DNA of 64,000 nucleotides from Escherichia coli (GTDB lineage: Bacteria > Pseudomonadota > Gammaproteobacteria > Enterobacterales > Enterobacteriaceae), in assembly GCF_016903815.1 (NCBI RefSeq), contig NZ_CP069973.1; one strand, written 5' to 3'. The notes below the pieces were generated by a model. That model saw only the letters and a list, made by a program, of their open reading frames with translations. It was not told the origin of the DNA and ran no database searches. The position numbers and the translations under genes are program-made. Numbering within the stretch: the first letter of the stretch is position 1; each line of letters begins with the position of its first letter. This document shows positions 4,793 to 42,785 of the stretch, one piece after another.

Positions 4793-5268
4793 TTTGTTGC
4801 CTTAATGAGTAGCGCCACCGCTTCACAGGCAATCCCTTCCCCACGTCCGGTAAATCCAAGTTTTTCCGTAGTAGTGGCTTTCACGTTAACATCATCCATA
4901 TGGCAGCCGAGATCTTCGGCAATAAACACGCGCATTTGTGGAATGTGCGGCAACATCTTCGGTGCCTGAGCGATGATAGTGACATCGACGTTGCCCAGGG
5001 TATAACCCTTCGCCTGAATACGACGCCAGGCTTCGCGTAGCAGCTCGCGGCTGTCGGCACCTTTAAATGCCGGATCGGTATCCGGGAACAGTTTGCCGAT
5101 ATCCCCCAGCGCCGCCGCGCCAAGCAATGCATCGGTCAACGCATGGAGCGCCACGTCGCCATCAGAATGCGCCAGCAATCCTTTTTCGTAAGGAATGCGT
5201 ACGCCACCAATGATAAGTGGGCCTTCACCGCCAAAGGCGTGTACGTCAAAACCGTGTCCAATTCGCAT
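4789..5268 (-). CDS. ispF: 2-C-methyl-D-erythritol 2,4-cyclodiphosphate synthase
   Basis: 159-aa ORF ([12 protein letters not shown]...), recognised as IspF; 4-bp overlap with truD. Confidence 0.96.
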
Positions 5269-5978
5269 TATGTATTCTCCTGATGGATGGTTCGGGTGAG
5301 GTAAAACTCGGCCAGTGCCAAATCTTCCGGTCGCGTGACTTTAATGTTATCCGCGCGGCCTTCGACCAACTGCGGATGGAATCCGCAATATTCCAGCGCC
5401 GAGGCTTCGTCGGTAATGGTAGCGCCTTCATTTAGAGCGCGCGTCAGGCAGTCATGTAACAGCTCGCGAGGGAAAAATTGCGGCGTCAGCGCGTGCCATA
5501 AGCCGTTGCGATCAACGGTATGAGCAATGGCATTTTTGCCCGGTTCGGCACGTTTCATCGTATCGCGCACTGGTGCGGCGAGGATCCCCCCCGTGCGGCT
5601 GGTTTCGCTCAACGCCAACAATCGCGCGAGGTCATCCTGATGCAGACAAGGACGAGCGGCGTCATGCACCAATACCCACTGCGCGTCGCCAGCGGCTTTC
5701 AGACCTGCCAGCACCGAATCGGCACGCTCATCACCGCCATCTACAACGGTGATTTGCGGATGATTCGCCAGAGGAAGTTGTGCAAAACGGCTATCGCCAG
5801 GACTTATGGCAATGACGACACGTTTCACCCGGGGATGCGCCAGCAGCGCATGCACCGAGTGTTCAAGAATGGTTTGATTACCGATTGAGAGATATTGCTT
5901 AGGACATTCCGTTTGCATTCGACGGCCAAATCCGGCCGCCGGAACCACGGCGCAAACATCCAAATGAGTGGTTGCCAT
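5268..5978 (-). CDS. ispD: 2-C-methyl-D-erythritol 4-phosphate cytidylyltransferase
   Basis: 236-aa ORF recognised as IspD; stop overlaps ispF start by 1 bp. Confidence 0.96.
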
Positions 5979-11861: not shown

Positions 11862-13071
<1,210 letters not shown>

Positions 13072-13075
<4 letters not shown>

Positions 13076-13722
13076 GCCTCTGCTCCGGGTTTGATCAGCA
13101 TCAGACCACAGCCGAACGCGCGGCTTTTGCCATACCCCTGGCTCAGACGTTGCAGAAATAACCCAGGATCGGTGACCGTAAGCATCCCCGTATAATCCAC
13201 GCTACTGAACTGGATCAGTTGCCGGGAGTTTTCCCGCCGCAGTTGCTGTTGTCGGTAGGCATCGACCGAGGTATCCAGTAGTGTAAAACCGCTTCTTTCC
13301 CCCTGCGCTGCCAGCCAGTCCAGCGCCGCCTGTTGTTGATGCAACCAGACATCACTTCCTTCCACCTGCCCCCTCACCTGCCGTTTCGCCTCCATCAGCA
13401 AGTCGTGGCGTTTGCCCGCTTTACAAATTGTTGGATTCGCCCGCAGGTTGAAACAAAGGGATTGTCCGGTACGCAACTCTGGCGCAAATGGTCGGCATTC
13501 GATGGTGAAAATATCACTTTCCGCCGGGCGTTCCTGCGACAGGACAAAAAAGCGAAACGCCCCCTGGAGTTCTTCCCGACGATAAAGAAATTGCCTTTCT
13601 TTGCCGCCAGGAAAAAGATCCCACAGCCACTGATGCATTACATATTCACCGCGACCCACCAAATGCAGCAACTGCGCAGGCAAAAGCTGGCCGGTATGTA
13701 AGGTTATTCTTGAGAGGTACAT
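13072..13722 (-). CDS. casE: CRISPR pre-crRNA endoribonuclease Cas6e (CasE/Cse3)
   Basis: Track ORF 13072..13860 trimmed to internal ATG (MYLSRITLHTGQ...), about 216 aa, with AGGAGG upstream. C-terminal glycine-rich G(F/M)GCGL-type motif. Start choice is inferred. Confidence 0.85.
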
Positions 13723-14450
13723 GGTTCCTCCTTGCTGAGCCACGGCCCCTGATTGATGGTGCGTTCCCCAAACAGCCACTGCTGACGATTTAAAGGAACA
13801 TCCCGGCGACGTAATATTTTGCTCGCGACCAGGCCGTCGTGTTCCCCTTCCCACCAGCATTCATCCTGAAGTTTCGGGAGTGAGACTTTCAGTTCGCGGA
13901 AACTATCCTGATACTGTTGGTATGCGTTACGTAAGACATCAGACGCGTTGCCTTCGAGCAGTAACGGCGCAAGTGGTAACGCCAGCGGATGACTTTTTCG
14001 CCCCAGATAAAGCGGAAAAACCGGATGACGTAAACCGTCCTGCAACTGTTCAAGCCTGTAAGACGCATCGGGGGTTGTTGCCACCGCCACCATCCACCAG
14101 GCATCGGTGTAGTAGTCGCGCCGGGAGATAATCGCGCTCAGAAGATCAGGGGCGCTCAACTCTTCGCGACGGCTGAAATAACGCGCTTTACGCACCTCTT
14201 TTGGCATCTGGACCGTGTGATAATCCCGTGCCCAGCGCGGGTTACGGCTGGCGCAAACCACCAGTGAATAGTGGCGGTTAAACGCGTTTAATCGTTCGGT
14301 ATCATCACGCCGAATCCCTACCCCGGCAGCCAGCAGCCCCAGCAATGCTGAGCGCGAAGGCAGTTCATGGGTATGACGCACTTCGCCGGGGGCATCGACG
14401 CCCCAGGATGCCATTGGCCCATGAAGCTGAAAAATCAAATATTGGCTCAT
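13704..14450 (-). CDS. casD: Cascade subunit Cas5e (CasD)
   Basis: 248-aa ORF at the Cas5 position between cas7 and cas6e; N-terminus (LIFQLHGPMASWG) is Cas5-like. Assigned by family resemblance and position. Confidence 0.85.
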   Translation of the reverse strand: MSQYLIFQLHGPMASWGVDAPGEVRHTHELPSRSALLGLLAAGVGIRRDDTERLNAFNRHYSLVVCASRNPRWARDYHTVQMPKEVRKARYFSRREELSAPDLLSAIISRRDYYTDAWWMVAVATTPDASYRLEQLQDGLRHPVFPLYLGRKSHPLALPLAPLLLEGNASDVLRNAYQQYQDSFRELKVSLPKLQDECWWEGEHDGLVASKILRRRDVPLNRQQWLFGERTINQGPWLSKEEPCTSQE

Positions 14451-14460
14451 TAGCCGCCCC

Positions 14461-15516
14461 TTACGCGCAGATAAAGTCCAGCACGTCCTTCATGCTTCCC
14501 TGTTTGTTCATCACGTCAAAGCTTACGCATTCGGTCTTCTGTTCATAGACCGTATTCATATTTTCGCGAAGCGTTGTAATACGCTGCACCGCCACATCTA
14601 ACTGCCGGGTGCCATTAATGGGTTCATAGAAAGCCGCCGCCAGAGAGCGTGGTTGTTCAGTGCCTTTTTCTGCCAGCGCCCAGGAGGCGTAGGCACGGCT
14701 GGCAAAGCTGTTCTGTTTGCCGGTTGGGGAGACTTTAAGTGCGGCTTCCGTAAAGGCGCGCAAGGTCTGATTAGCTAACGCTTCGTCACCGCCGAGGTTT
14801 TCGACCAGCAGATCTTTATCGATGCAGATATAGGTGTAGAACAGCGCAGAACCGAATCCGGTTTCACCAAGATGCCCGGCACCGGCATCTTCAGAAGCCT
14901 GGCGCAAATCATCAACGGCGGTGAAAAAATCATCTTCGACAATCGTTTCACTGACACCAAATGCATGCGCGACCTGGCAGGCGGCTTCAACATTAAATTC
15001 GGGTTTATTCGCCAGCATACGACCAAACATAGCGATATCTACCGCCATGCGATCTTTACGTAACAAAGCGAGATCTTCCTCTTTTGGCGCGCGCTTTTCT
15101 TCGGCCAGTTGATGGGCCAGCGCTTTTACGGCGTCAAATTCTGCCGGGCTGATATGGACTAGCTGTTCAGTTTCGGCGTTAGTGAGCGGATCTTTTGGTT
15201 TTTTGTCGTTTTTAGCTTTCCCAAGATAATCCGCAATTTTTGCCGCCCATTCGATGGCTTTTTTCTCTTCGATGCCTTTCTCAATCAGGATAGTTGCCGC
15301 CTCACGCGCAATACGCCCACTGCGAATACCAATATGGCCCGCCAGTGCCTGTTCAAAAAGTGCAGAAGTGCGCCACGCACGTTTCAGACTTTGTGAGGAA
15401 ACGCGCAGACGCGTTGCTCCACCCAGTACCACAGTTTTTGGCGCACCGGTGTCATCACGGTTAAGGTTGGCAGCAGGGTAAGCGGTTAACAAATGAAGCT
15501 GAATAAATGTCGTCAT
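14461..15516 (-). CDS. casC: Cascade backbone subunit Cas7e (CasC/Cse4)
   Basis: 351-aa ORF; N-terminus (LHLLTAYPAANLNRDDTGAPKT) resembles E. coli CasC. Confidence 0.9.
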   Translation of the reverse strand: MTTFIQLHLLTAYPAANLNRDDTGAPKTVVLGGATRLRVSSQSLKRAWRTSALFEQALAGHIGIRSGRIAREAATILIEKGIEEKKAIEWAAKIADYLGKAKNDKKPKDPLTNAETEQLVHISPAEFDAVKALAHQLAEEKRAPKEEDLALLRKDRMAVDIAMFGRMLANKPEFNVEAACQVAHAFGVSETIVEDDFFTAVDDLRQASEDAGAGHLGETGFGSALFYTYICIDKDLLVENLGGDEALANQTLRAFTEAALKVSPTGKQNSFASRAYASWALAEKGTEQPRSLAAAFYEPINGTRQLDVAVQRITTLRENMNTVYEQKTECVSFDVMNKQGSMKDVLDFICA

Positions 15517-15530
15517 GAGATAGTCCTTTA

Positions 15531-16067
15531 TTAATTTTGTTCGTTATCGGCGTCGCCAGCCTGGTAATATTCCAGCGCCCAGCGGATACGGATAAATTCT
15601 GTTGGCCGCTGCTGGCGGCGGTGATGATTGAGCAGGTCGTCGCTCTCCTGGCACCAGCGGAAAATATCTTCTGCCAAAGAGATAAGATTGACGGAACCAT
15701 TTAATAATTTGACCGCGCGACGTAACTGACGCAGTAAATCATCAGGCGTTTTTACTGCCGACAGGCGAGTAAAACGCCCCTCCGACATTACCGCCGCCAG
15801 CTGCGCGGCAAAAGGCTGCCGTTCATCAATAGCTTTAACATTGGCGCTAACTGCGGCGACCAGCGCCAGTGCGGTAAAACGCCACTCTTGTGCTTCAATT
15901 TTCCACAAAGTGTGGGTCTGCATCAGCAGAGAACGAAACCCTTCTGACAGACAAACATCATTAACCGTTGTGCTACGCCGCAGACTGGCACGATTGCCGC
16001 GTTTTTCCTGCAACTCTTCGTGCCATTTACGCAGCGTGGCTTTGTGCTCCTCTTTTACAATACTCAT
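15531..16067 (-). CDS. casB: Cascade small subunit Cse2 (CasB)
   Basis: 178-aa ORF between cse1 and cas7. Assigned by position and size; I do not recognise the sequence itself. Confidence 0.8.
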   Translation of the reverse strand: MSIVKEEHKATLRKWHEELQEKRGNRASLRRSTTVNDVCLSEGFRSLLMQTHTLWKIEAQEWRFTALALVAAVSANVKAIDERQPFAAQLAAVMSEGRFTRLSAVKTPDDLLRQLRRAVKLLNGSVNLISLAEDIFRWCQESDDLLNHHRRQQRPTEFIRIRWALEYYQAGDADNEQN

Positions 16068-17626
16068 TCAGCAGCCTCCTGCTTTTTCTCCCTGGCGGCT
16101 TTAGCATTTTGCTTCTCCGCCGATGTTGTAAAATATTTCTTGCGCGCGGTCATGACGCGTTTCAAATCAACGGGCTCATATGGATTGGTGAAGACACGCT
16201 CGTCAAAATCCTGACGCGCGAATAACCAAATTTCCTTTTGCCATTTGCTGAGTAATTCATCCGCATCCTGACCTTCTTCAATGTGGCGCACTAACCTCAG
16301 GAAGCGATGCTGAGTTTTGTTCCAGAAGTCGATATCCACAAAACTGAAATCACCCCGTGCACCTTTTGGATCGGAGAACCACGCTTCTTTCAATGCACTC
16401 CGTAACAGACTCAGAATCCGTGAAGCCGTTTGCGCAGCCAGCCGCAGCTTCGGTATCTGGCCTTCTTTTTTATCGAGCAGCAGCGGAAAATGGTGTTCGT
16501 ACCAACAGCGCGCTTTCATGTTGTCAAAATCATAACCAAATCCCCACAGGCCCACTTTTGCCTGCTTGAGACTGCTGGCATTAAAGAGTTTCACCACCAG
16601 CGCGGGAAGTTCCGTATTGTTTTCTGATTTACCCGTTTCGATAAGGCCTAACCAGTCGCGCCAGATTAAACCGCCTGGTTGTGGTTTGACCGAGTAAAAC
16701 TCGCCGCCCTCTTTAAGGGGTACACGGTAAGGCGTTAAGGGATGCTGCCACATGGCATAATTCGCGCCGTAATTTTTGGTCGTCATCAGGCTCAGGAGCG
16801 CGTCGTTCTGCTCGCCGCAAATATCGCAGTTGCCGACTGTCGTGGTATTAAAATCAATACGAATACGCCGCGGCATTCCCCAGTACGCCTGGAGTTTATT
16901 AACCTGATCATCGGTTACCACCGCACCGGCCAGTTCGCTGGTACGCGTCGGGCCAAGCCAGGGGAAAACCAGATCGTCAAATTTTTTGGGTAGCGGTAAG
17001 TCGGCTTCGTCCTGCGGCATCACATTGAGCCACAGTTTGCGCCACAAGGGCGTTTGTTGATTGCCCTGATATTCCTGTAATTCAATCAGAGTGGTCATCG
17101 GCCCACCGCCGCGTAAACCGGTGCGGTAGCCTTTACCACCTGACGGCGCATTTAACTGTAGGGAGAACAGAGCTAACGCAGAACAATGTGGGCACAGGTA
17201 TTCCGTTACACCACGCTTGATAAAGTGGTCTTTATTAAACTTCGTTGTTTGAGCGCCGGGAATCTCAGGCAGTAGCGAAGCGACCTGAACTTTATCTCCT
17301 GTGAGCGCCTCGAAATCCTGCATAAATGAAGGGGAATCTGGCCCAAACTGGAAAGCGTGTTCTAAGGACAGCAATGCTTCCCGTAGCTTTTCAGATTCCA
17401 GTCCGTCTTCCCAGATATCATCCCAACGACGATGATCTTTTGGCGCAAAGCTGGTTTGTAGTAGCCCCAGCAAAAACTGCCATGCCGCTCCCTGGAGATC
17501 TGCCCGTGGCGCAGCAATATCGACAACATTTTCATCCGCCAGATCGACAGGCGCCAGTTTGCCTGTCGTTCCGTCTTTATAACGAACGGGCAACCACGGG
17601 GTTGTCAGAAGTGAAAACGAGTTCAT
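16064..17626 (-). CDS. casA: Cascade large subunit Cse1 (CasA)
   Basis: Track ORF 16064..17695 trimmed to internal ATG (MNSFSLLTTPWLPVRY...) with GAGAGGA upstream, about 520 aa. Assigned by position and N-terminal resemblance; start uncertain (alternative ATG 6 bp upstream). Confidence 0.82.
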   Translation of the reverse strand: MNSFSLLTTPWLPVRYKDGTTGKLAPVDLADENVVDIAAPRADLQGAAWQFLLGLLQTSFAPKDHRRWDDIWEDGLESEKLREALLSLEHAFQFGPDSPSFMQDFEALTGDKVQVASLLPEIPGAQTTKFNKDHFIKRGVTEYLCPHCSALALFSLQLNAPSGGKGYRTGLRGGGPMTTLIELQEYQGNQQTPLWRKLWLNVMPQDEADLPLPKKFDDLVFPWLGPTRTSELAGAVVTDDQVNKLQAYWGMPRRIRIDFNTTTVGNCDICGEQNDALLSLMTTKNYGANYAMWQHPLTPYRVPLKEGGEFYSVKPQPGGLIWRDWLGLIETGKSENNTELPALVVKLFNASSLKQAKVGLWGFGYDFDNMKARCWYEHHFPLLLDKKEGQIPKLRLAAQTASRILSLLRSALKEAWFSDPKGARGDFSFVDIDFWNKTQHRFLRLVRHIEEGQDADELLSKWQKEIWLFARQDFDERVFTNPYEPVDLKRVMTARKKYFTTSAEKQNAKAAREKKQEAAE

Positions 17627-17723
17627 ACGCATCCTCTCGTAAAAAAGACCATCCCAGGTCGGTTGTCCATCATTCCATCCTTTTCGGTGTATCAACTATT
17701 CAGAGAGCCCTGTCGCAGGCATC

Positions 17724-20423
17724 TCAACCAACCTTGCCAGTCAATCCTTCCATAGCCGAATACCCGCAACTTTCGTCATCGGTAACTAAAATCACGTTTG
17801 CCATCTCCGGATCTTTCCGCTGTTCAATGCACCACTGCCTGAACGCTTCCCCTTCCAGTAAAGAAAACTCATCCCGATGTTTTTTCCACCAGCTTCGACG
17901 CACTCTGACAACGCTCATTTCCCATGCGTGAGCACCGTTGGCATAAGGCTTCACCACACTGGCAATACAGGTAGCCAGCCACAGGGAAACAGACTCCTCC
18001 GCCAGACGTGTCGACAGCTTTTCCGGAAGGTAATCGTTGATATTGGCGGCATAGCCAGGCCTGAAGTTCAGCACAAACTTTTTAGCCATTGCGCGATCGC
18101 AGTAATATTTGCCCACTTGCTCCTGCTCGCTGCGGGCAAATCCTTCCGGCATTACCACGTCCTCACCGTAGACTGATTCAATAAGAAGGCGGGCTGCGTG
18201 TGGCATTTGAATAGCGCCTTGCTCACGCAGTACACGCTGCGTCAGCCAGATTCGTCCATGATCGGGATAGACATATGCACTGTTACGCATGGCACTGCCG
18301 AACCATTCGTCACCTGGAGCGTCGTCCCAGACGGGGGCCAGAATCAGCAATTCAGGAGGGGAACGCTCGTCTTTTCCGTCACGCTTTAACTGACCATTAA
18401 TATCGCGGATATGCCGCTGTAATCGCCCCGCTCGCTGGATCAGCAAATCAACAGGGGCCAGGTCGGAAATCATTTCGTCCATATCGCAATCAACGCTCGA
18501 CTCTAAGACCTGAGTACAAATGAGGACTTTTCCGGCACGCTGTGAGCTATCTTCTTTACCGAAGCGTGCCAGCGTTTCCGTTTCAATTCGCTGGCGATCG
18601 CTAAAAGCAAAGCGGCTATGAAACAGAGAAAGGCTGGAAGCAGGAATGACGCCGCGGGCAAGCAACTGACGATAAACCTTAATAGCGTCATCGACAGAAT
18701 TCCGGATCCAGGCGATGCATTTCCCCTGACTTACTGCCGATTCGATACGCGCAATACATTCTTGTTCGCTATGAAGCCAACCCACGCTCACGCTACGCTC
18801 AACGTCTTTGCGCGTCGCTACCCGGTGTGAATGCACATCGGATTTCGTAACGTGCGTCAGCCAGGGGTAATCATCCTTTTCCAGGAACGGAGCTTCTTGC
18901 TGGCCCTCTGTACCACGCGCAAAGGCAGCAACGAGTTTGTCGCACTGCTGTTGAGATAACGTGGCAGAAAGCAAAATGACGCTGTTTCCGCCACGCGCCT
19001 GCCGCTCGATCAGCCCTTCAAGAATGCATGACATGTAAGCGTCACAGGCATGGATCTCATCAGCCAGCAGGATTTTGTTACTCAGTCCCAGAAGCCGCAG
19101 ATTATTATGTTTGAACGGCATCACAGCCATCATCGCCTGATCCAGCGTGCCGACGCCAATTTCAGCCAGTAGCGCCTTCTTGTTACTGTCGGCAAACCAG
19201 GCCGCACATCCCTGACTGAACGTTTGTTCATCCGGTTCTTCTGACCCGACTAAATCACCGGACCAGAGTGATTCATTAAAGCGGTCCATTAATGTTCGGG
19301 CACTGTGTGCCAGCACCAGGCTGGGGCGGGACTCTGGCGAATAGAAAGCAAGCCAGGTTTTGACCAGTCGATCGTACATGGCATTGGCCGTTGCCATTGT
19401 TGGCAGGCCAAAAAACAAACCCTGCGCTTTACCCGCAGCCATCAACCTGTGCGCCAGGATAAGCGCCGCTTCCGTTTTACCTGCGCCAGTCACATCTTCC
19501 AGAATAAATAACTGTGGCCCTGGCTGGCTGATATCCAGATCCAGCACCTTTTGCTGTAACGGTGTCGGATTCTCAATAAAAGGAAACAGCGTATTAATTC
19601 CGGTGAAAGGCGCGACTTTTGCTTTTAGAGGAAAGACGGTTAAGGCGTTTTGAGCCTGAACTAAAGTTTTCTGCCAGTAACCTTTAATATCCATTGGGTG
19701 TGCGACGCGTGGAAAAAATCGCGTTGACGAACCCGTCCAGTCTGCGAGCACGACGGTTGCAGAGATATACCAGGAAAGGTGTTTTATAAGTTCAATGCCC
19801 TCATCATCATCCCAGAATGCGGGGATCTCTATGAGCGGAAACAGTGGTTTGATTTCAAGAAGAAAATCTCGCGCGGCAGCTTTGTCTTCAGGCAGAAAAT
19901 TATCCAGTTCATCAATACGGTCAGGCGGGCGACCATGATGCCCGGTAGTTATGGGCATCCACATCTCCATCACCCGTTTAAGTTTGCGCGGAGAGAGTGA
20001 AGATGAAGGAAGCAATTCTTCGTATTCACTTAAATAATGATGCCACAGCCAGTAGCCCAGCGTTGAATGAGAGATCTTTTCGTAATTCTTTCTTGCGCCT
20101 TCCGGAACCTTGAGTTGTGGGTGCAGGTAAAGTTGCTGAAAAGAGCGGGCAAATTTTCCAGTATCGTGCCAGCACAATAGCCAGGCGAAAAATTGTGCTG
20201 CCTGCTCCGTATCAGCGAAACCTAGTTGACGAAAATAGTCAGTCAGCCCGAAGCAATTGCTTTTAACCATTAAATAGCCCATCGCGGCTACATCCAGCGA
20301 ATGCCAGCAAAGAAGGTGATAGTCGTCGCCCCCGTCTTTCTCGCCGCGTCGGGTTTTTCCCCAGAAATCAAAAAAAGTCACAATATTTTTATCCTTCAGT
20401 AAACTTAAAGGATATTTACGCAT
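17724..20423 (-). CDS. cas3: CRISPR-associated nuclease/helicase Cas3 (HD nuclease + DExH helicase)
   Basis: 899-aa ORF with N-terminal HD-like region (HSLDVAAMGY), Walker A (GAGKT) and DEIH box; ATG start. Confidence 0.95.
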   Translation of the reverse strand: MRKYPLSLLKDKNIVTFFDFWGKTRRGEKDGGDDYHLLCWHSLDVAAMGYLMVKSNCFGLTDYFRQLGFADTEQAAQFFAWLLCWHDTGKFARSFQQLYLHPQLKVPEGARKNYEKISHSTLGYWLWHHYLSEYEELLPSSSLSPRKLKRVMEMWMPITTGHHGRPPDRIDELDNFLPEDKAAARDFLLEIKPLFPLIEIPAFWDDDEGIELIKHLSWYISATVVLADWTGSSTRFFPRVAHPMDIKGYWQKTLVQAQNALTVFPLKAKVAPFTGINTLFPFIENPTPLQQKVLDLDISQPGPQLFILEDVTGAGKTEAALILAHRLMAAGKAQGLFFGLPTMATANAMYDRLVKTWLAFYSPESRPSLVLAHSARTLMDRFNESLWSGDLVGSEEPDEQTFSQGCAAWFADSNKKALLAEIGVGTLDQAMMAVMPFKHNNLRLLGLSNKILLADEIHACDAYMSCILEGLIERQARGGNSVILLSATLSQQQCDKLVAAFARGTEGQQEAPFLEKDDYPWLTHVTKSDVHSHRVATRKDVERSVSVGWLHSEQECIARIESAVSQGKCIAWIRNSVDDAIKVYRQLLARGVIPASSLSLFHSRFAFSDRQRIETETLARFGKEDSSQRAGKVLICTQVLESSVDCDMDEMISDLAPVDLLIQRAGRLQRHIRDINGQLKRDGKDERSPPELLILAPVWDDAPGDEWFGSAMRNSAYVYPDHGRIWLTQRVLREQGAIQMPHAARLLIESVYGEDVVMPEGFARSEQEQVGKYYCDRAMAKKFVLNFRPGYAANINDYLPEKLSTRLAEESVSLWLATCIASVVKPYANGAHAWEMSVVRVRRSWWKKHRDEFSLLEGEAFRQWCIEQRKDPEMANVILVTDDESCGYSAMEGLTGKVG

Positions 20424-36786: not shown

Positions 36787-38265
36787 ATGTCGAAAAAATA
36801 CATCATAGGGATTGATGGTGGAAGTCAGAGCACAAAAGTGGTGATGTACGATCTGGAAGGTAATGTGGTTTGCGAAGGCAAAGGCTTATTGCAGCCGATG
36901 CACACGCCAGATGCCGATACCGCAGAACATCCTGACGACGATTTATGGGCATCATTATGCTTTGCCGGTCACGATTTGATGAGTCAGTTTGCCGGAAATA
37001 AAGAAGATATTGTCGGTATTGGTCTGGGATCCATCCGTTGCTGCCGTGCGTTATTGAAAGCCGATGGCACGCCAGCTGCGCCGTTGATTAGCTGGCAGGA
37101 TGCACGCGTTACACGCCCTTACGAACATACGAATCCTGACGTGGCATATGTCACCTCTTTTTCGGGTTATCTGACGCATCGCTTAACCGGCGAGTTTAAA
37201 GACAATATCGCCAACTATTTTGGTCAGTGGCCGGTGGATTATAAGACCTGGGCATGGAGTGAAGATGCCGCAGTCATGGAGAAGTTTAATATCCCCCGTC
37301 ATATGCTGTTTGATGTGCAAATGCCGGGCACTGTTCTTGGGCATATCACTCCTCAAGCCGCTCTGGCGACACATTTCCCGGCTGGGCTGCCGGTTGTTTG
37401 TACCACCAGTGATAAACCGGTAGAAGCACTGGGAGCCGGGTTACTGGATGATGAAACTGCGGTAATTTCTCTTGGCACTTACATCGCGTTGATGATGAAC
37501 GGCAAATTACTACCGAAAGATCCGGTAGCGTACTGGCCGATTATGTCTTCTATTCCGCAAACCTTGCTGTATGAAGGTTACGGTATTCGCAAAGGCATGT
37601 GGACGGTGAGCTGGCTACGCGACATGTTAGGCGAGTCGTTAATTCAGGATGCCAAAGCACAGGATCTTTCACCGGAAGATTTGCTCAACAAAAAAGCGTC
37701 TTGTGTGCCGCCAGGCTGTAATGGTCTGATGACGGTGCTGGACTGGCTGACCAATCCGTGGGAACCGTACAAACGCGGGATTATGATTGGCTTTGATTCC
37801 AGCATGGATTACGCATGGATATATCGTTCGATACTGGAAAGCGTGGCGCTGACGCTGAAGAACAATTACGACAATATGTGTAATGAAATGAATCACTTTG
37901 CAAAGCATGTGATCATTACTGGCGGCGGTTCGAACAGCGATCTGTTTATGCAGATTTTTGCCGACGTGTTCAACCTTCCGGCACGCCGTAACGCCATTAA
38001 TGGTTGTGCAAGCCTGGGGGCAGCGATTAATACGGCGGTAGGTCTGGGGCTATACCCGGATTACGCAACGGCTGTCGACAAAATGGTTCGCGTGAAAGAT
38101 ATCTTTATGCCTGTTGAGAGCAACGCCAAACGCTACAACGCGATGAATAAAGGCATTTTCAAGGAGTTAACCAAACATACTGATGTAATCCTGAAAAAAT
38201 CGTATGAAGTGATGCATGGGGAATTGGGGAATGCGGATTCGATCCAGAGCTGGTCGAATGCGTAA
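36787..38265 (+). CDS. ygcE: FGGY-family carbohydrate kinase YgcE
   Basis: 492-aa ORF with N-terminal IGIDGGSQSTK sugar-kinase motif. Coordinates taken from the track; my base count placed the ATG 1 bp earlier. Confidence 0.88.
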   Translation: MSKKYIIGIDGGSQSTKVVMYDLEGNVVCEGKGLLQPMHTPDADTAEHPDDDLWASLCFAGHDLMSQFAGNKEDIVGIGLGSIRCCRALLKADGTPAAPLISWQDARVTRPYEHTNPDVAYVTSFSGYLTHRLTGEFKDNIANYFGQWPVDYKTWAWSEDAAVMEKFNIPRHMLFDVQMPGTVLGHITPQAALATHFPAGLPVVCTTSDKPVEALGAGLLDDETAVISLGTYIALMMNGKLLPKDPVAYWPIMSSIPQTLLYEGYGIRKGMWTVSWLRDMLGESLIQDAKAQDLSPEDLLNKKASCVPPGCNGLMTVLDWLTNPWEPYKRGIMIGFDSSMDYAWIYRSILESVALTLKNNYDNMCNEMNHFAKHVIITGGGSNSDLFMQIFADVFNLPARRNAINGCASLGAAINTAVGLGLYPDYATAVDKMVRVKDIFMPVESNAKRYNAMNKGIFKELTKHTDVILKKSYEVMHGELGNADSIQSWSNA

Positions 38266-38311
38266 GTGAGGAAGACCGGGCGGGAAACTGCCCGGCCTGA
38301 ACATACCTGAA

Positions 38312-38449
38312 TGGTTATCCCCGCTGGCGCGGGGAACATAAGTTCGACAACTTAAAAAATGATAACAAGTCCGGTTTATCCCCGCTGATGCAGGGAACAT
38401 AATAAAAACTTTAACTAGTTCGGTTTATCCCTGTTTTTACAAGGAATAT
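38312..38449 (-). CRISPR. Degenerate CRISPR remnant (three decayed I-E-like repeats)
   Basis: tggttatccccgctggcgcggggaaca (~38312), cggtttatccccgctgatgcagggaacat (~38372), cggtttatccctgtttttacaaggaatat (~38421); irregular spacing; AT-rich sequence follows. Confidence 0.7.
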
Positions 38450-38902
38450 TAACTACACTCGATGTCTTTAGAATAAAAGACAATACGAATCGCACTTTAT
38501 CAATTTTCACTTAAAGTATGAACTGGATATCTTTATTCATAAGAACTATTCATCAACAGCGTATAGAGGCGATTATGTAAAACCACTCATTAGCCTCAAA
38601 ACAAAGACAAATTTCCAGATTTATTACTTAATCAATGAATAACAAGCTTAAAAAATACACTGTTATTCTAAAGAAAAAATTAACAGGCATTAATTAATAT
38701 TAAAAAAATAATATGTTAAAATTTCTTAACGGTTTAAGGATTATACAAATAACACTTTGATTAAATTTGATTTTTTGTATCGATAATTGTGAACTTCTCA
38801 TATATGGAGAGCTATTTTGAACATGAGGTGTTACGTGGATATGTTGCTTAATACGAGTACTGCTAATATAAAAACTTGAGAAAGAGATAACGGGTTATAT
38901 GG

Positions 38903-39236
38903 TGGTTTATTCCCGCTGGTGCGGGGAACTCATCAGTGATATCCAACATTGCGGAGCTAAACGCGGTTTATCCCCGCTGGCGCGGGGAACTCTAATATCC
39001 CTGGCGATAATCAACCGGCTTACTCGGTTTATCCCCGCTGGCGCGGGGAACTCGAGAGCGAGGGGAGATTCCGGCAGGGCGTGCACGGTTTATCCCCGCT
39101 GGCGCGGGGAACTCGCGGGTATGCTCCGCTCCGTGTTCGACAAACTCGGTTTATCCCCGCTGGCGCGGGGAACTCAAGGTCGCGGGGACGCCACGGGCAG
39201 TCAATGTCGGTTTATCCCCGCTGGCGCGGGGAACTC
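38903..39236 (-). CRISPR. Second type I-E CRISPR array: 6 repeats (first degenerate), 5 spacers of 32 bp
   Basis: Repeat cggtttatccccgctggcgcggggaactc at 61-bp period, starting ~38903 (degenerate tggtttattcccgctggtgcggggaactc), 38964, 39025, 39086, 39147, 39208. AT-rich leader on the queE side. Confidence 0.95.
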
Positions 39237-39574
39237 ACTAAACATAACCTATTATTAATTATTGATTTTTTAAGTCAGTCACAATCTACCAACTTAACAG
39301 AAACACACAAACAACACATCCATTATGTTAAAGAGCACTTAATTCATTGATTGAAAAGCCAAATATTTAAAGTAATTCTATACCGACTAAAATCCACCAA
39401 ACTCCGACGTAATAATTTTCACTCCAACGAAAAATTAACGCCACAGAATTTGTAGAAAATGATAATGATTAGTCCAGGATGGGCAAAATGGAGGTTTTTT
39501 AGAGGCGACAAAGAATATAAATGAGTAGAAGTCTTTACAGGTTCCACCCATTTATAACGCTTATAAATGTGTAA
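39237..39574 (-). promoter_or_regulatory. Probable CRISPR leader (AT-rich) for the second array
   Basis: About 340 bp AT-rich between the newest repeat and the queE stop; same repeat orientation as the cas-adjacent array. Confidence 0.55.
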
Positions 39575-40246
39575 TCAGGCAATATTTAAATATTTATGTG
39601 TTTGCATCGACAAACGCCAATTACGCGCAATGCAGGTTTCAATGCACAAACGTGTGGCATCATCCTTTTGGCTAATCGGCTGCAGTGCAATGACTCGCGG
39701 TTTATCATCGGTCAGCGTCGCAAGCAATTCATCCAGTGCTTCGATATCACGTACGCGTCCAACTGGGTGTTTGATTTCGTTAGCTCGCTCCAGGGCTTGC
39801 GACAATACTTCATAACCACCACGCATATTTAGCTTTGGCGACACGGTGACCCAGGTATTCGGCGTACAACGCACTTCATGAGTACCGCTGGTTTCTATCT
39901 GGCAGCTAAAACCGTTCTTTTCGAGCAGGTCAGTCAGTGGCAGCAAATCATGAATGCAAGGCTCACCACCCGTAATCACCACATGCCGCGCGGTGTATCC
40001 CTGGCGACCAATGACAGCCAGCAAGTCTTCACTGCTCGCCGCCCCCCACTTATCACTCTCTTTGGTCTTCGCCAGAATGCTGAAAAGGGAGACTTCCCGA
40101 TCCTCAAGCTTTTCCCAGGTGTGTTTGGTGTCGCACCAGGCACAGCCAACCGGGCATCCCTGTAAACGAATAAAAATGGCGGGGACGCCGGTAAAGTAAC
40201 CCTCACCTTGCAGGGTCTGGAACATCTCGTTAATCGGGTACTGCAT
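39575..40246 (-). CDS. queE: 7-carboxy-7-deazaguanine synthase (radical SAM)
   Basis: 223-aa ORF with radical-SAM Cys motif (CPVGCAWCDT); recognised as QueE (ygcF). Confidence 0.93.
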   Translation of the reverse strand: MQYPINEMFQTLQGEGYFTGVPAIFIRLQGCPVGCAWCDTKHTWEKLEDREVSLFSILAKTKESDKWGAASSEDLLAVIGRQGYTARHVVITGGEPCIHDLLPLTDLLEKNGFSCQIETSGTHEVRCTPNTWVTVSPKLNMRGGYEVLSQALERANEIKHPVGRVRDIEALDELLATLTDDKPRVIALQPISQKDDATRLCIETCIARNWRLSMQTHKYLNIA

Positions 40247-40539
40247 AGCATTCTCTGTGAAGTGGATAATTGTTAATTATTGCAGATCCTGCCACAACAA
40301 TCATGTCTTATTAACATTCTGTTACAGGCAGGTTTAAAGAAAAATGAGAAACAGATCGTTAATAATAAAAGGGAGTAACGTATTATGTCAGAAATAAATA
40401 AAGTAAAGGGATTTAATCATGTCAAAAACATTCACCAAAATTATACTTATTTTTTCTGTGTTCGTTTTTAATTATAACGAATCTCAAATTACCGATGCCG
40501 CCGTCAATTTATTTATCCAGCTTTAATGGGACATTTATA

Positions 40540-41412
40540 ATGCGCTATTTCATACTAATATTCACATTCGTGTGTTCCTTTATTGCAGCCCAACCAACTA
40601 TTGTCCCATCATTACAGCAACAAGTTACGGATCTTACGAGTAGCTTAAACTCACAAGAAAAGAAAGAACTGACGTACAAGTTAGAATCTATTTTCAATAA
40701 TACCCAAGTGCAAATTGCTGTATTAATTGTTCCCACAACCAAAGACGAGACAATTGAAAAATATGCTACACGGGTTTTTGACAATTGGCGTTTAGGAGAT
40801 GCCAAACGTAATGATGGGATACTGATCATTGTTGCCTGGTCGGATCGTACTGTCCGCATCCAGGTAGGTTATGGGCTGGAAGAAAAGGTAACCGATGCTC
40901 TGGCTGGAGATATCATCCGTAGCAACATGATACCCGCATTTAAACAACAAAAATTAGCTCAGGGATTAGAGCTAGCTATAAACGCTTTGAATAACCAACT
41001 CACTTCACAACACCAATATCCGGCTAATCCTTCAGAAATTGAATCAGCGTCTTCCAGTGATCATTATTACTTTGCTATTTTTTGGGTATTTGCAGTGATG
41101 TTCTTCCCTTTCTGGTTTTTTCATCAAGGCAGTAATTTTTGTCGCGCATGTAAAAGCAGTGTCTGTATTTCAGCAATCTATCTTTTAGATTTATTCCTGT
41201 TCTCCGATAAAACTTTTTCCATTGCTGTATTTTTCTTCTTTTTTACTTTCACCACCATTATGGTCTTTACCTGTTTATGTGTACTTCAGAAAAGAGCATC
41301 TGGTAGAAGTTATCATTCAGACAACAGCGGTTCCGCTGGAGGCTCAGATAGCGGCGGCTTCAGCGATGGTGGCGGTTCTTCTGGCGGTGGCGGCGCATCC
41401 GGTCGCTGGTAA
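40540..41412 (+). CDS. ygcG: TPM-domain protein YgcG with TM segments and Gly/Ser-rich C-terminal tail
   Basis: Track ORF 40495..41412 trimmed to [10 protein letters not shown]..., about 290 aa; signal-like N-terminus, F-rich hydrophobic segments, tail [28 protein letters not shown]. Gene visibly low in GC. Confidence 0.8.
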
Positions 41413-41425
41413 CTCCACCATAAAA

Positions 41426-41449
41426 AATGCCAGCCCGAAGGCTGGCATT
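41426..41449 (-). terminator. Rho-independent terminator 3' of eno (also positioned 3' of ygcG)
   Basis: Hairpin aatgccagcc-cgaa-ggctggcatt with a T-run on the minus strand, about 23 nt downstream of the eno stop. Confidence 0.6.
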
Positions 41450-41471
41450 ATCAAATCAGATAAAGTCAGAC

Positions 41472-42785
<1,314 letters not shown>

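What the first reader, a model, noticed from the sequence alone, without database searches (positions are those of the whole stretch)
40540..41412. Low-GC ygcG: TPM-domain membrane protein with a phenylalanine-rich segment and Gly/Ser tail
The gene and its upstream region are visibly more AT-rich than their neighbours queE and eno, suggesting horizontal origin. The product has a signal-like N-terminus, a TPM-like domain, F-rich hydrophobic stretches ([17 protein letters not shown] and [18 protein letters not shown]) and a flexible Gly/Ser/Asp-rich C-terminus. This is an odd architecture with no function I know of.
Basis: seen in the sequence. Interest (0 to 1): 0.35.

Follow-up and report, generated by a model that had tools for sequence, protein, structure and literature searches.

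The report
ygcG: orphaned partner of LemA
The low-GC gene is the known E. coli gene ygcG, an ordinary member of a very large family of periplasm-facing TPM-domain membrane proteins, and here it is the survivor of a LemA–TPM operon that many other E. coli strains still carry intact at the same site.

Summary
The 290-codon ORF at 40540-41412 (+) has the lowest GC (40.9%) and GC3 (36.1%) of 48 ORFs in the window. It encodes a signal peptide, a TPM domain (Pfam E 9e-37; TM-score 0.90 to BA41), Phe-rich hydrophobic helices and a Gly/Ser tail.

The architecture is not odd. It is the standard layout of the YgcG family: 20,870 clusters, and 94 of 104 length-matched relatives end in GGGG[AS]..W.

The new point concerns the locus. 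About 27% of complete E. coli genomes carry lemA plus up to three TPM paralogues between queE and eno. This window, like K-12 (about 72% of genomes), keeps only a 35-codon LemA N-terminal remnant (the yqcG small-protein gene) and one divergent TPM gene. The low-GC stretch (40454-41337) is exactly the allele-specific core. It is bounded by sharp homology breaks, which favours recombinational replacement, but no donor was found.

ygcG evolves under weak constraint (dN/dS 0.25-0.56; 4 of 21 sampled copies disrupted). Its function is still unknown. The most likely role is a periplasmic scaffold or assembly factor linked to envelope stress. The gene is already known and of low to moderate interest.

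The parts
40247..40539 (.). Divergent queE-ygcG intergenic and regulatory region, 30% GC. Its proximal part is conserved in all E. coli locus types.
   Evidence: GC. The stretch is collinear with the lemA-type loci up to 40453 at 86% identity. Literature reports PhoP-P binding upstream of queE and a sigma-S ChIP peak here (PMC4974570; PMC4447067). The promoter-pattern scan was not above shuffle expectation.
40419..40526 (+). 35-codon ORF ([35 protein letters not shown]). It is the N-terminal remnant of lemA and this strain's allele of yqcG. The K-12 yqcG start corresponds to ATG 40385-40387, which is out of frame here because of an extra A in the run 40424-40428.
   Evidence: DNA alignment A2 shows collinearity with the lemA 5' ends of four strains. 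BLASTP against the LemA N-terminus gives 13/30 identities, E 7e-5; K-12 YqcG gives E 4e-4. RefSeq calls the equivalent ORF 'frameshifted' in near-identical strains. The LSGC lipobox of intact LemA is absent.
40540..41412 (+). ygcG coding sequence: 290 aa, a TPM-domain inner-membrane protein.
   Evidence: RefSeq annotates it as 'ygcG: TPM domain-containing protein' or 'YgcG family protein'.
40540..40590 (+). Predicted Sec signal peptide (aa 1-17, [17 protein letters not shown]|QP).
   Evidence: Kyte-Doolittle (KD) hydropathy peak at aa 4-22 and a helix at aa 2-15 in the model. An N-terminal hydrophobic segment is present in 95/104 relatives. The cleavage site is inferred from the I-A-A pattern and was not tested.
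40624..40995 (+). TPM domain (aa 29-152), predicted to be periplasmic. It carries Gln108 where 92/95 relatives have Glu (RIEVGYGLE motif).
   Evidence: Pfam E 9.4e-37. PDB sequence hits: BA41 5anp E 1e-22, 7tbr, 2kw7. AF2 pLDDT is above 90 across the domain. Foldseek TM-score is 0.90 to 5anp and 7tbr.
41059..41292 (+). Three predicted transmembrane helices (aa 174-193, 199-221, 228-251). The region is Phe-rich and T-rich, with T at 43-46% in all three codon positions.
   Evidence: Three hydrophobic segments occur in 73/90 relatives. The K+R distribution (loop 1 0.78, loop 2 0.03, after TM3 1.93) fits an out-in-out-in topology.
41293..41409 (+). Gly/Ser/Asp-rich tail (aa 252-290) ending in the family-invariant GGGGASGRW. 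It is predicted to be cytoplasmic. The coding DNA from 41301 is 60% GC, and from 41338 it is shared at 93% with the alternative allele.
   Evidence: pLDDT is below 50 for aa 252-277, but the last 10 residues average pLDDT 86, with a strand at aa 285-289. This was reproduced in a second family member.
40454..41337 (+). Allele-specific low-GC core (37.9% GC), bounded by homology breakpoints with the lemA + 3xTPM locus type. An internal mosaic junction lies at 40716/40717.
   Evidence: BLASTN breakpoints. Segment 40454-40716 is present in 3947 genomes and segment 40717-41337 in 4289 genomes.
41426..41449 (.). GC-rich hairpin between the convergent ygcG and eno stop codons. It is terminator-like on the eno strand.

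Best explanation
40540-41412 is ygcG, a typical member of the YgcG/TPM family.

Predicted layout of the protein:
- A Sec signal peptide places an alpha-beta-alpha TPM domain in the periplasm.
- Three Phe-rich helices anchor the protein in the inner membrane.
- A disordered Gly/Ser linker carries the family-invariant GGGGASGRW end into the cytoplasm.

Genomic setting. In the family, the gene normally sits directly downstream of lemA. In E. coli the queE-eno slot holds alternative cassettes. About a quarter of genomes have lemA plus up to three TPM paralogues. This window and K-12 have a reduced form, in which lemA is cut down to its first ~30 codons (the small membrane protein gene yqcG; here a 35-codon ORF using the native lemA ATG), followed by one deeply divergent TPM allele.

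Composition. The low GC and T-richness belong to this allele-specific core, and the T-richness plausibly contributes to the Phe-rich helices. The core was most likely installed by recombination through the conserved left flank/lemA 5' end (to 40453) and the conserved tail-coding 3' end.

Function (inferred, not shown). YgcG is most likely a non-enzymatic or weakly enzymatic, possibly metal-binding, periplasmic scaffold or assembly factor for membrane complexes. It would be expressed from the PhoP/sigma-S-bound divergent region during envelope or stationary-phase stress. It is now under relaxed selection because its LemA partner is gone.
For: Shown:
- Domain and fold.
- Family-wide architecture and invariant tail.
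- Three-helix topology with positive-inside support.
- lemA lies immediately upstream, on the same strand, in 5 of 7 sampled relatives.
- Alternative cassettes at the same E. coli site: O157-type lemA + 3 TPM, mosaic forms and the K-12 type.
- Counts: 3923 genomes with the full yqcG-ygcG form, 1455 with lemA cassette DNA, and 4289 with the ygcG-type core, always single-copy and chromosomal.
- yqcG is homologous to the lemA 5' end.
- Composition.
- Weak constraint: dN/dS 0.25-0.56 (one close pair 0.09). Four of 21 spread-sampled copies are disrupted by IS1, a frameshift or a stop, with two of the 21 counted intact from their listing only. The Eno protein is identical in every sampled record in which it was listed.

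From papers:
- An IS-insertion hotspot near ygcG (10.1101/527788).
- A sigma-S ChIP peak in the queE/ygcG region (PMC4447067).
- PhoP-P binding, and a yqcG deletion effect on queE expression (PMC4974570).
- The TPM domain argued to be chaperone-like rather than a phosphatase (10.1101/2020.09.24.301986; 10.1101/2025.01.14.632903).
- TPM-fold subunits in mycobacterial respiratory supercomplexes and photosystem II assembly factors appear among the fold matches.
Against: - No experiment or paper gives a function for YgcG or for LemA-TPM pairs.
- No donor was found. The nearest clusters outside E. coli are only 39-43% identical (Brenneria, Limnobaculum, Yersinia). No plasmid or phage carrier was found, and the scan of 100,044 species representatives found the allele only in E. 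coli.
- The link between low GC and Phe-richness is only suggestive across relatives (Spearman -0.36, p 0.31, n 10).
- AlphaFold places the C-terminal motif as an ordered strand, apparently on the TPM sheet. This conflicts with a cytoplasmic tail.
- The E108Q change at a nearly invariant position could mean altered or lost activity.
Confidence: 0.6

Rival explanations
1. The low GC arose in place and not by transfer. After its LemA partner was lost, ygcG drifted under relaxed selection and AT-biased mutation. On this view the gene is a slowly decaying relic.
For: dN/dS is 0.25-0.56. Four of 21 sampled copies are disrupted. No donor or vector was found. The alternative cassette is also below the genome mean at 46.1% GC, with lemA at 41.5%. 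The nearly invariant Glu108 is replaced.
Against: - Similarity to the alternative allele drops abruptly, from 86-93% nucleotide identity in the flanks to about 45% amino-acid identity in the core, at 40453 and 41338. This is a recombination signature rather than gradual decay.
- The same low-GC core is also found as the last gene of intact four-gene operons.
- The 290-codon frame and nearly all conserved TPM and tail positions are retained, and dN/dS is well below 1.
Confidence: 0.2
2. YgcG is an enzyme: a periplasmic phosphatase or nucleotidase of the TLP18.3/BA41 type.
For: [quoted passage not shown] Its reported ATPase/ADPase activity is from my own knowledge and was not verified here. D31 is invariant and L36 nearly invariant. 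They align with the Asp/Leu positions of the metal site described for LMTP1 and Rhom172_1776, with a Glu at +9.
Against: Two comparative analyses argue that the phosphatase assignment is unlikely. There is no consensus on function across six or more solved TPM structures. The third metal ligand position is variable (E 39, Q 35 of 95), and Glu108 is changed to Gln in this allele. The NCBIfam Psb32 equivalog model scores 38.8 against a cut-off of 160.
Confidence: 0.15
3. ygcG is functionally dead in this lineage. On this view, what selection keeps at the locus is the regulatory DNA for queE and the small protein YqcG.
For: Deleting yqcG raises queE expression and PhoP-P binds this DNA. ygcG is often disrupted, and an IS-insertion hotspot near ygcG is reported.
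Against: 17 of 21 sampled copies are intact at full length (two of these, H9 and H10, are counted intact from their listing only). dN/dS is below 1 in every pair. In this window the K-12 yqcG frame is itself broken, while ygcG is intact.
Confidence: 0.1

Closest known systems
BA41 of Bizionia argentinensis (PDB 5ANP), a YgcG-family TPM protein
   Same: N-terminal hydrophobic segment, TPM domain (36% identity in the structural alignment, TM-score 0.90, rmsd 2.3 A), membrane segment, and a Gly-rich tail ending in GGGGASGGW.
   Different: BA41 appears to have a single membrane segment after the domain (my reading of its sequence; not analysed), whereas YgcG has three. YgcG has Gln at the nearly invariant Glu108 and unusually Phe-rich helices.
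LemA-TPM gene pairs (PF04011 + PF04536), e.g. Limnobaculum xujianqingii and the E. coli O157:H7 lemA + 3xTPM operon
   Same: Same family, same gene order and strand, and in E. coli the same chromosomal slot between queE and eno.
   Different: In this window lemA is reduced to a 35-codon remnant with no LemA domain and no lipobox, and only one TPM gene remains. YgcG is about 45% identical to O157 TPM1 and TPM3.
TLP18.3 / Psb32 / LMTP1 (thylakoid-lumen TPM proteins; photosystem II repair or assembly)
   Same: TPM fold on the non-cytoplasmic side of an energy-transducing membrane, with a C-terminal membrane anchor (10.1101/2024.10.28.620569).
   Different: Sequence identity is only 13-16%. There is no photosystem in E. 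coli. The Psb32 equivalog model is far below its cut-off. These proteins have no Gly-rich W-terminated tail or LemA partner.
YqcG, the K-12 'cell envelope stress response' small protein
   Same: Same locus and same DNA: the window's ORF at 40419-40526 shares the K-12 reading frame from codon 13 of YqcG onward.
   Different: One extra A puts the K-12 start codon out of frame here, so the peptide would begin at the ancestral lemA ATG and be 35 aa rather than 46 aa. RefSeq marks this allele as frameshifted.

Membership tests
TPM domain (Pfam PF04536) | Profile match above the curated gathering score | tested here: met
   126.2 bits against a cut-off of 22.1, E 9.4e-37, covering profile positions 1-124 of 125.
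TPM domain (Pfam PF04536) | Alpha-beta-alpha sandwich fold superposable on solved TPM domains | tested here: met
   AF2 model with pLDDT above 90 over aa 21-150. Foldseek: 5anp TM-score 0.90 and rmsd 2.3 A; 7tbr 0.90; 2kw7 0.77; 3pvh 0.78.
TPM domain (Pfam PF04536) | Conserved core residues (D31, Q58, E73, W83, D102, R106, E108, G110-G112, E114, D119, P132) | tested here: inconclusive
   All are retained except E108, which is Gln here and Glu in 92/95 relatives. The functional consequence is unknown.
TPM domain (Pfam PF04536) | Phosphatase, ATPase or metal-binding activity | not testable with these tools
   Activity is disputed in the literature.
YgcG family (full-length architecture) | N-terminal signal/hydrophobic segment + TPM + hydrophobic helices + Gly-rich tail ending in GGGG[AS]xG.W | tested here: met
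   End-to-end matches (query 1-290) to many clusters of 280-300 aa. Tail motif in 94/104 relatives and N-terminal segment in 95/104. Three helices in 73/90. Invariant G278, G279, G285 and S287; W290 in 94/95.
LemA-TPM operon | Intact lemA (PF04011) immediately upstream on the same strand | tested here: not met
   Only a 35-codon N-terminal remnant is present, with no Pfam hit. Intact lemA is present at the same site in 1455 other E. coli genomes.
Psb32 (NCBIfam NF047379, equivalog) | Score at or above the curated cut-off | tested here: not met
   38.8 bits against a cut-off of 160.
Horizontally acquired island | Atypical base composition and codon usage | tested here: met
   Lowest GC and GC3 of 48 ORFs; 2.3rd percentile of 873-bp windows.
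Horizontally acquired island | Variable presence or alternative content between strains, with sharp boundaries | tested here: met
   Alternative cassettes with breakpoints at 40453/40454 and 41337/41338, plus a mosaic junction at 40716/40717.
Horizontally acquired island | Mobility signature (integrase, tRNA, flanking repeats, plasmid or phage copy) or an identifiable donor | tested here: not met
   No close copy on plasmids or phages. Close copies were found only in E. coli among 100,044 species representatives. The nearest relatives outside E. coli are 39-43% identical. No flanking repeats apart from the neighbouring CRISPR array.

The most novel reading that the evidence does not exclude
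The family-invariant C-terminal GGGGASG[RS]W peptide may be a docking strand for the TPM domain. AlphaFold models it as an ordered beta-strand in two family members that are 38% identical, even though the preceding linker is disordered. If this is real, one of two things follows. Either the accepted topology (periplasmic TPM, cytoplasmic tail) is wrong, or the tail-TPM contact is a regulated event such as pre-export capping or self-inhibition. That would give this very large uncharacterised family a mechanism. A second, separate reading is that the well-known K-12 small protein YqcG is a domesticated signal-anchor fragment of LemA.
Probability: 0.15. Interest if true: 0.5.

Novelty: already known. 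Interest (0 to 1): 0.22.

Why it matters
The gene is annotated and belongs to a known, uncharacterised family, so the finding as written adds little. Three points are useful.

1. It corrects the idea that the architecture is unusual.
2. It shows that the K-12 pair yqcG-ygcG is a reduced form of a LemA-TPM operon that is intact in O157:H7 and many other strains. Functional work on this module should therefore use those strains. The small protein YqcG should be read as a LemA N-terminal fragment; I found no paper saying this.
3. It shows that the queE-eno slot is a recombination-prone, multi-allelic locus next to the CRISPR array.

Tried and rejected
1. ygcG as a recent TPM1/TPM3 deletion hybrid of the O157-type operon: rejected. 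It is only about 45% identical to either paralogue, and DNA similarity is confined to the flanks and a 179-nt stretch at 70%.

2. Donor search:
- The scan of 100,044 species genomes returned only E. coli plus a 413-nt contaminant contig.
- Plasmid and phage tblastn gave only mislabelled E. coli chromosomes and hits below 50% identity.
- The nearest protein clusters are 39-43% identical Enterobacterales.
- P0128 had no contig on record.

3. Rfam over 38000-42000: no family found.

4. Promoter-pattern scan: 4 sites against 4.5 expected, so uninformative.

5. Phe-richness as a simple function of gene GC across relatives: the trend goes the right way but is not significant (rho -0.36, p 0.31, n 10).

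6. Start codon at 40495 (305 aa): rejected on family N-termini and annotation.

7. Long homologues P0001 (459 aa) and P0005 (299 aa): these look like internal duplications or assembly chimeras. P0004 (341 aa) is a read-through call from the yqcG start.

8. Weak Pfam hits (DUF5130, MOLO1, YxzE, CCB2_CCB4) are all below their cut-offs. The YxzE hit is caused by the Gly-rich tail.

9. Literature searches linking yqcG or E. coli TPM genes with LemA found nothing relevant.

Full report
**Observation**

The window is E. coli chromosome, with the order CRISPR array, queE, ygcG, eno, pyrG. The ORF from ATG 40540 to TAA 41412 on the + strand encodes 290 aa.
- Its GC is 40.9% and its GC3 is 36.1%. The neighbours are queE 51.0/54.0, eno 50.6/51.7 and pyrG 52.3/58.1. 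The upstream intergenic region is 30.0% GC.
- It has the lowest GC and GC3 of 48 ORFs in the window and the third-lowest codon-usage score. It lies at the 2.3rd percentile of 873-bp windows, whose mean is 50.8% with sd 3.9.
- Pfam finds a TPM domain at aa 29-152 (E 9.4e-37).
- Hydropathy peaks lie at aa 4-22, 176-194, 203-221 and 230-248. Phe makes up 21% of aa 166-256. The last 34 residues contain 13 Gly and 10 Ser.

**The architecture is ordinary for its family**

An exhaustive profile search finds 20,870 clusters (50% identity level) at E <= 0.001 and 11,174 at E <= 1e-10. Many are 280-300 aa proteins that match the query end to end.
- Among 104 length-matched relatives, 95 have an N-terminal hydrophobic segment and 94 end in GGGG[AS]..W.
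- With a relaxed threshold, 73 of 90 have three hydrophobic segments after the domain. Basic residues concentrate in loop 1 and after the third segment and are almost absent from loop 2. This fits a periplasmic TPM domain and a cytoplasmic tail.
- In a 97-sequence alignment the tail positions G278, G279, G285 and S287 are invariant, and W290 is present in 94/95. The tail end is therefore the best-conserved part of the protein, not filler.
- The solved relative BA41 (5ANP) has the same layout and the same tail.
- An AlphaFold model (pLDDT 81) has a confident TPM domain that superposes on 5ANP and 7TBR at TM-score 0.90. It also has three helices at aa 174-193, 199-221 and 228-251.

What is unusual is a matter of degree. 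Phe content in the hydrophobic region is 0.264, against a family median of 0.127 and a 95th percentile of 0.207. The coding strand there is 43-46% T at all three codon positions. This suggests that composition drives the Phe-richness, but the GC-Phe trend across ten relatives with DNA in hand is not significant.

**The locus**

The region was compared with 5,426 complete E. coli genomes.
- 5,413 share the flanks, but only 3,923 carry the full yqcG-ygcG form seen here and in K-12.
- 1,455 instead carry lemA cassette DNA in the same slot. In O157:H7 the slot holds lemA (PF04011, E 5e-48) followed by three TPM genes of 224, 382 and 304 aa.
- The two locus types are alignable only up to window position 40453 on the left (86%) and from 41338 on the right (93%). 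In between, YgcG is about 45% identical to O157 TPM1 and TPM3.
- This allele-specific core, 40454-41337, has 37.9% GC, while the O157-type cassette has 46.1%.
- Mosaics exist. Strains 23CRST044 and SCPM-O-B-8794 have lemA and two TPM genes followed by a 290-294 aa last gene. That gene matches the window from 40717 onward at 95% but has an O157-TPM3-like first 59 codons.
- The core 40717-41337 is present in 4,289 genomes and the K-12-specific segment 40454-40716 in 3,947. About 340 genomes therefore carry the ygcG-type core inside a four-gene operon.
- The core is always single-copy and chromosomal.

ygcG is thus positionally the last TPM gene of a LemA-TPM operon.

**The upstream AT-rich region contains the rest of the story**

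A DNA alignment of seven strains shows the window and K-12 to be collinear with the lemA 5' region, through the lemA start codon and about 30 codons beyond it.
- In the window the native lemA ATG (40419) opens a 35-codon ORF ending at 40526. Its product aligns with the LemA N-terminus at 13/30 identities, E 7e-5.
- K-12 has one A fewer in the run at 40424-40428. This brings an upstream ATG (window 40385) into frame and gives the 46-aa YqcG, which also aligns with LemA (E 4e-4).
- RefSeq therefore labels the window-type allele 'frameshifted'.
- The LSGC lipobox of intact E. coli LemA is lost in the remnant.
- I found no paper linking yqcG with LemA.

Outside E. coli, lemA lies directly upstream on the same strand in 5 of 7 sampled relatives. 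LemA-TPM is therefore the conserved unit, and ygcG here is an orphaned partner.

**Origin**

Two things favour replacement by recombination over gradual in-place decay: the sharp homology breaks, and the presence of the same low-GC core in intact operons. The G-rich tail-coding DNA is conserved among paralogues at 79-87% and gives an obvious crossover substrate.

No donor was found.
- The nearest clusters outside E. coli are 39-43% identical Enterobacterales.
- A scan of 100,044 species representatives found the allele only in E. coli.
- No plasmid or phage carries it.

Horizontal origin is therefore plausible but unproven.

**Selective state**

- Pairwise dN/dS among seven alleles is 0.25-0.56, apart from one close pair at 0.09.
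- In a spread sample of 21 full-length matches, four copies are disrupted: two by IS1, one by a frameshift and one by an internal stop. Two of the 21 (H9, H10) were counted intact from their listing only.
- The Eno protein is the same accession in every sampled record in which it was listed, while YgcG has at least eight.
- A preprint lists an IS-insertion hotspot near ygcG.

The gene is constrained, but weakly.

One nearly invariant residue differs. Position 108 in the RIEVGYGLE motif is Glu in 92/95 relatives and Gln in all ygcG-type alleles examined here.

**Function**

Nothing is established for YgcG.
- The TPM domain was first called a phosphatase. Later comparative work argues for a chaperone-like role in assembling membrane complexes. 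A structural study states that there is no consensus.
- Fold matches include photosystem II assembly factors and subunits of mycobacterial respiratory supercomplexes.
- D31 is invariant and L36 nearly invariant. They align with the Asp/Leu of the metal site described for LMTP1 and Rhom172_1776, with a Glu at +9.
- The divergent region upstream is bound by PhoP-P and shows a sigma-S ChIP peak.
- LemA's soluble domain is predicted to be extracytoplasmic, and E. coli LemA has a lipobox. Both partners would therefore face the periplasm.

My best reading is a periplasm-facing, possibly metal-binding scaffold or assembly factor of an envelope-stress module, now partnerless in this lineage. This step is inference.

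**Unexplained**

In both AlphaFold runs (this protein, and Limnobaculum P0133 at 38% identity) the linker is disordered but the last 5-9 residues form a beta-strand with pLDDT 79-97. The only other strands in the models are in the TPM sheet. That contact conflicts with the positive-inside topology, and I could not inspect the coordinates.

**Verdict**

The gene is already known and typical of its family. The added value is the reading of yqcG-ygcG as a reduced LemA-TPM operon at a multi-allelic locus.

Noticed in passing
window 38904-39262, with degenerate copies at 38312-38450: CRISPR array of six 29-nt type I-E repeats (CGGTTTATCCCCGCTGGCGCGGGGAACTC) at 61-nt spacing. Three degenerate repeats lie further upstream, and a very AT-rich stretch (26-27% GC) lies between the two groups. 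The ORF listing 'ORFs' at 38899-39350 are read through these repeats.
   Followed up: partly
window 12152-20423 (- strand): Type I-E cas operon: Cas3 (HD domain plus C-terminal domain), Cse1 and Cas1 were confirmed by Pfam. GC is about 50-55%.
   Followed up: partly
window 41392-41409 (aa 285-290); also P0133 aa 285-293: AlphaFold models the invariant C-terminal GGASGRW as an ordered beta-strand (pLDDT 86 here; 79-97 in a 38%-identical relative) after a disordered linker. The only possible strand partners are in the periplasmic TPM sheet, whereas charge distribution places the tail in the cytoplasm.
   Followed up: partly
window 40861-40863 (codon 108): CAG (Gln) at a position where 92 of 95 family members have Glu (RIEVGYGLE motif). 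The change is shared by all ygcG-type alleles examined here.
   Followed up: partly
L004 (STEC309) 5023-5385: A third locus type, represented by about 340 genomes that match only the first 42% of the O157 cassette. In STEC309 it consists of lemA, a truncated TPM1, and a 120-aa ORF with no Pfam hit in place of TPM2 and TPM3.
   Followed up: partly
L001 (O157:H7) 5461-5693: The 233-nt gap after the 224-aa TPM1 contains a tail-coding remnant (5626-5680, 85% identical to the ygcG tail DNA). TPM1 is therefore truncated in O157:H7. The orthologue in L007 is an intact ORF of 305 aa as listed (295 aa from the family-type ATG).
   Followed up: partly
H1 (MLI106K4) and H11 (Z1323PEC0011), in the ygcG region: IS1 insertions split ygcG in two of 21 spread-sampled genomes. 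The genome with 100% identity to the window carries one, while the window itself does not. A preprint lists an IS-insertion hotspot near ygcG.
   Followed up: partly
window 41427-42656 (+): A 409-aa ORF lies entirely antisense to eno. It is most likely a by-product of eno's codon structure rather than a gene.
   Followed up: no
protein P0004 (341 aa, 207 member sequences): In some E. coli the reading frame is open from the yqcG start through ygcG, so gene callers report a 341-aa fusion. It is unknown whether this fusion is ever translated.
   Followed up: no
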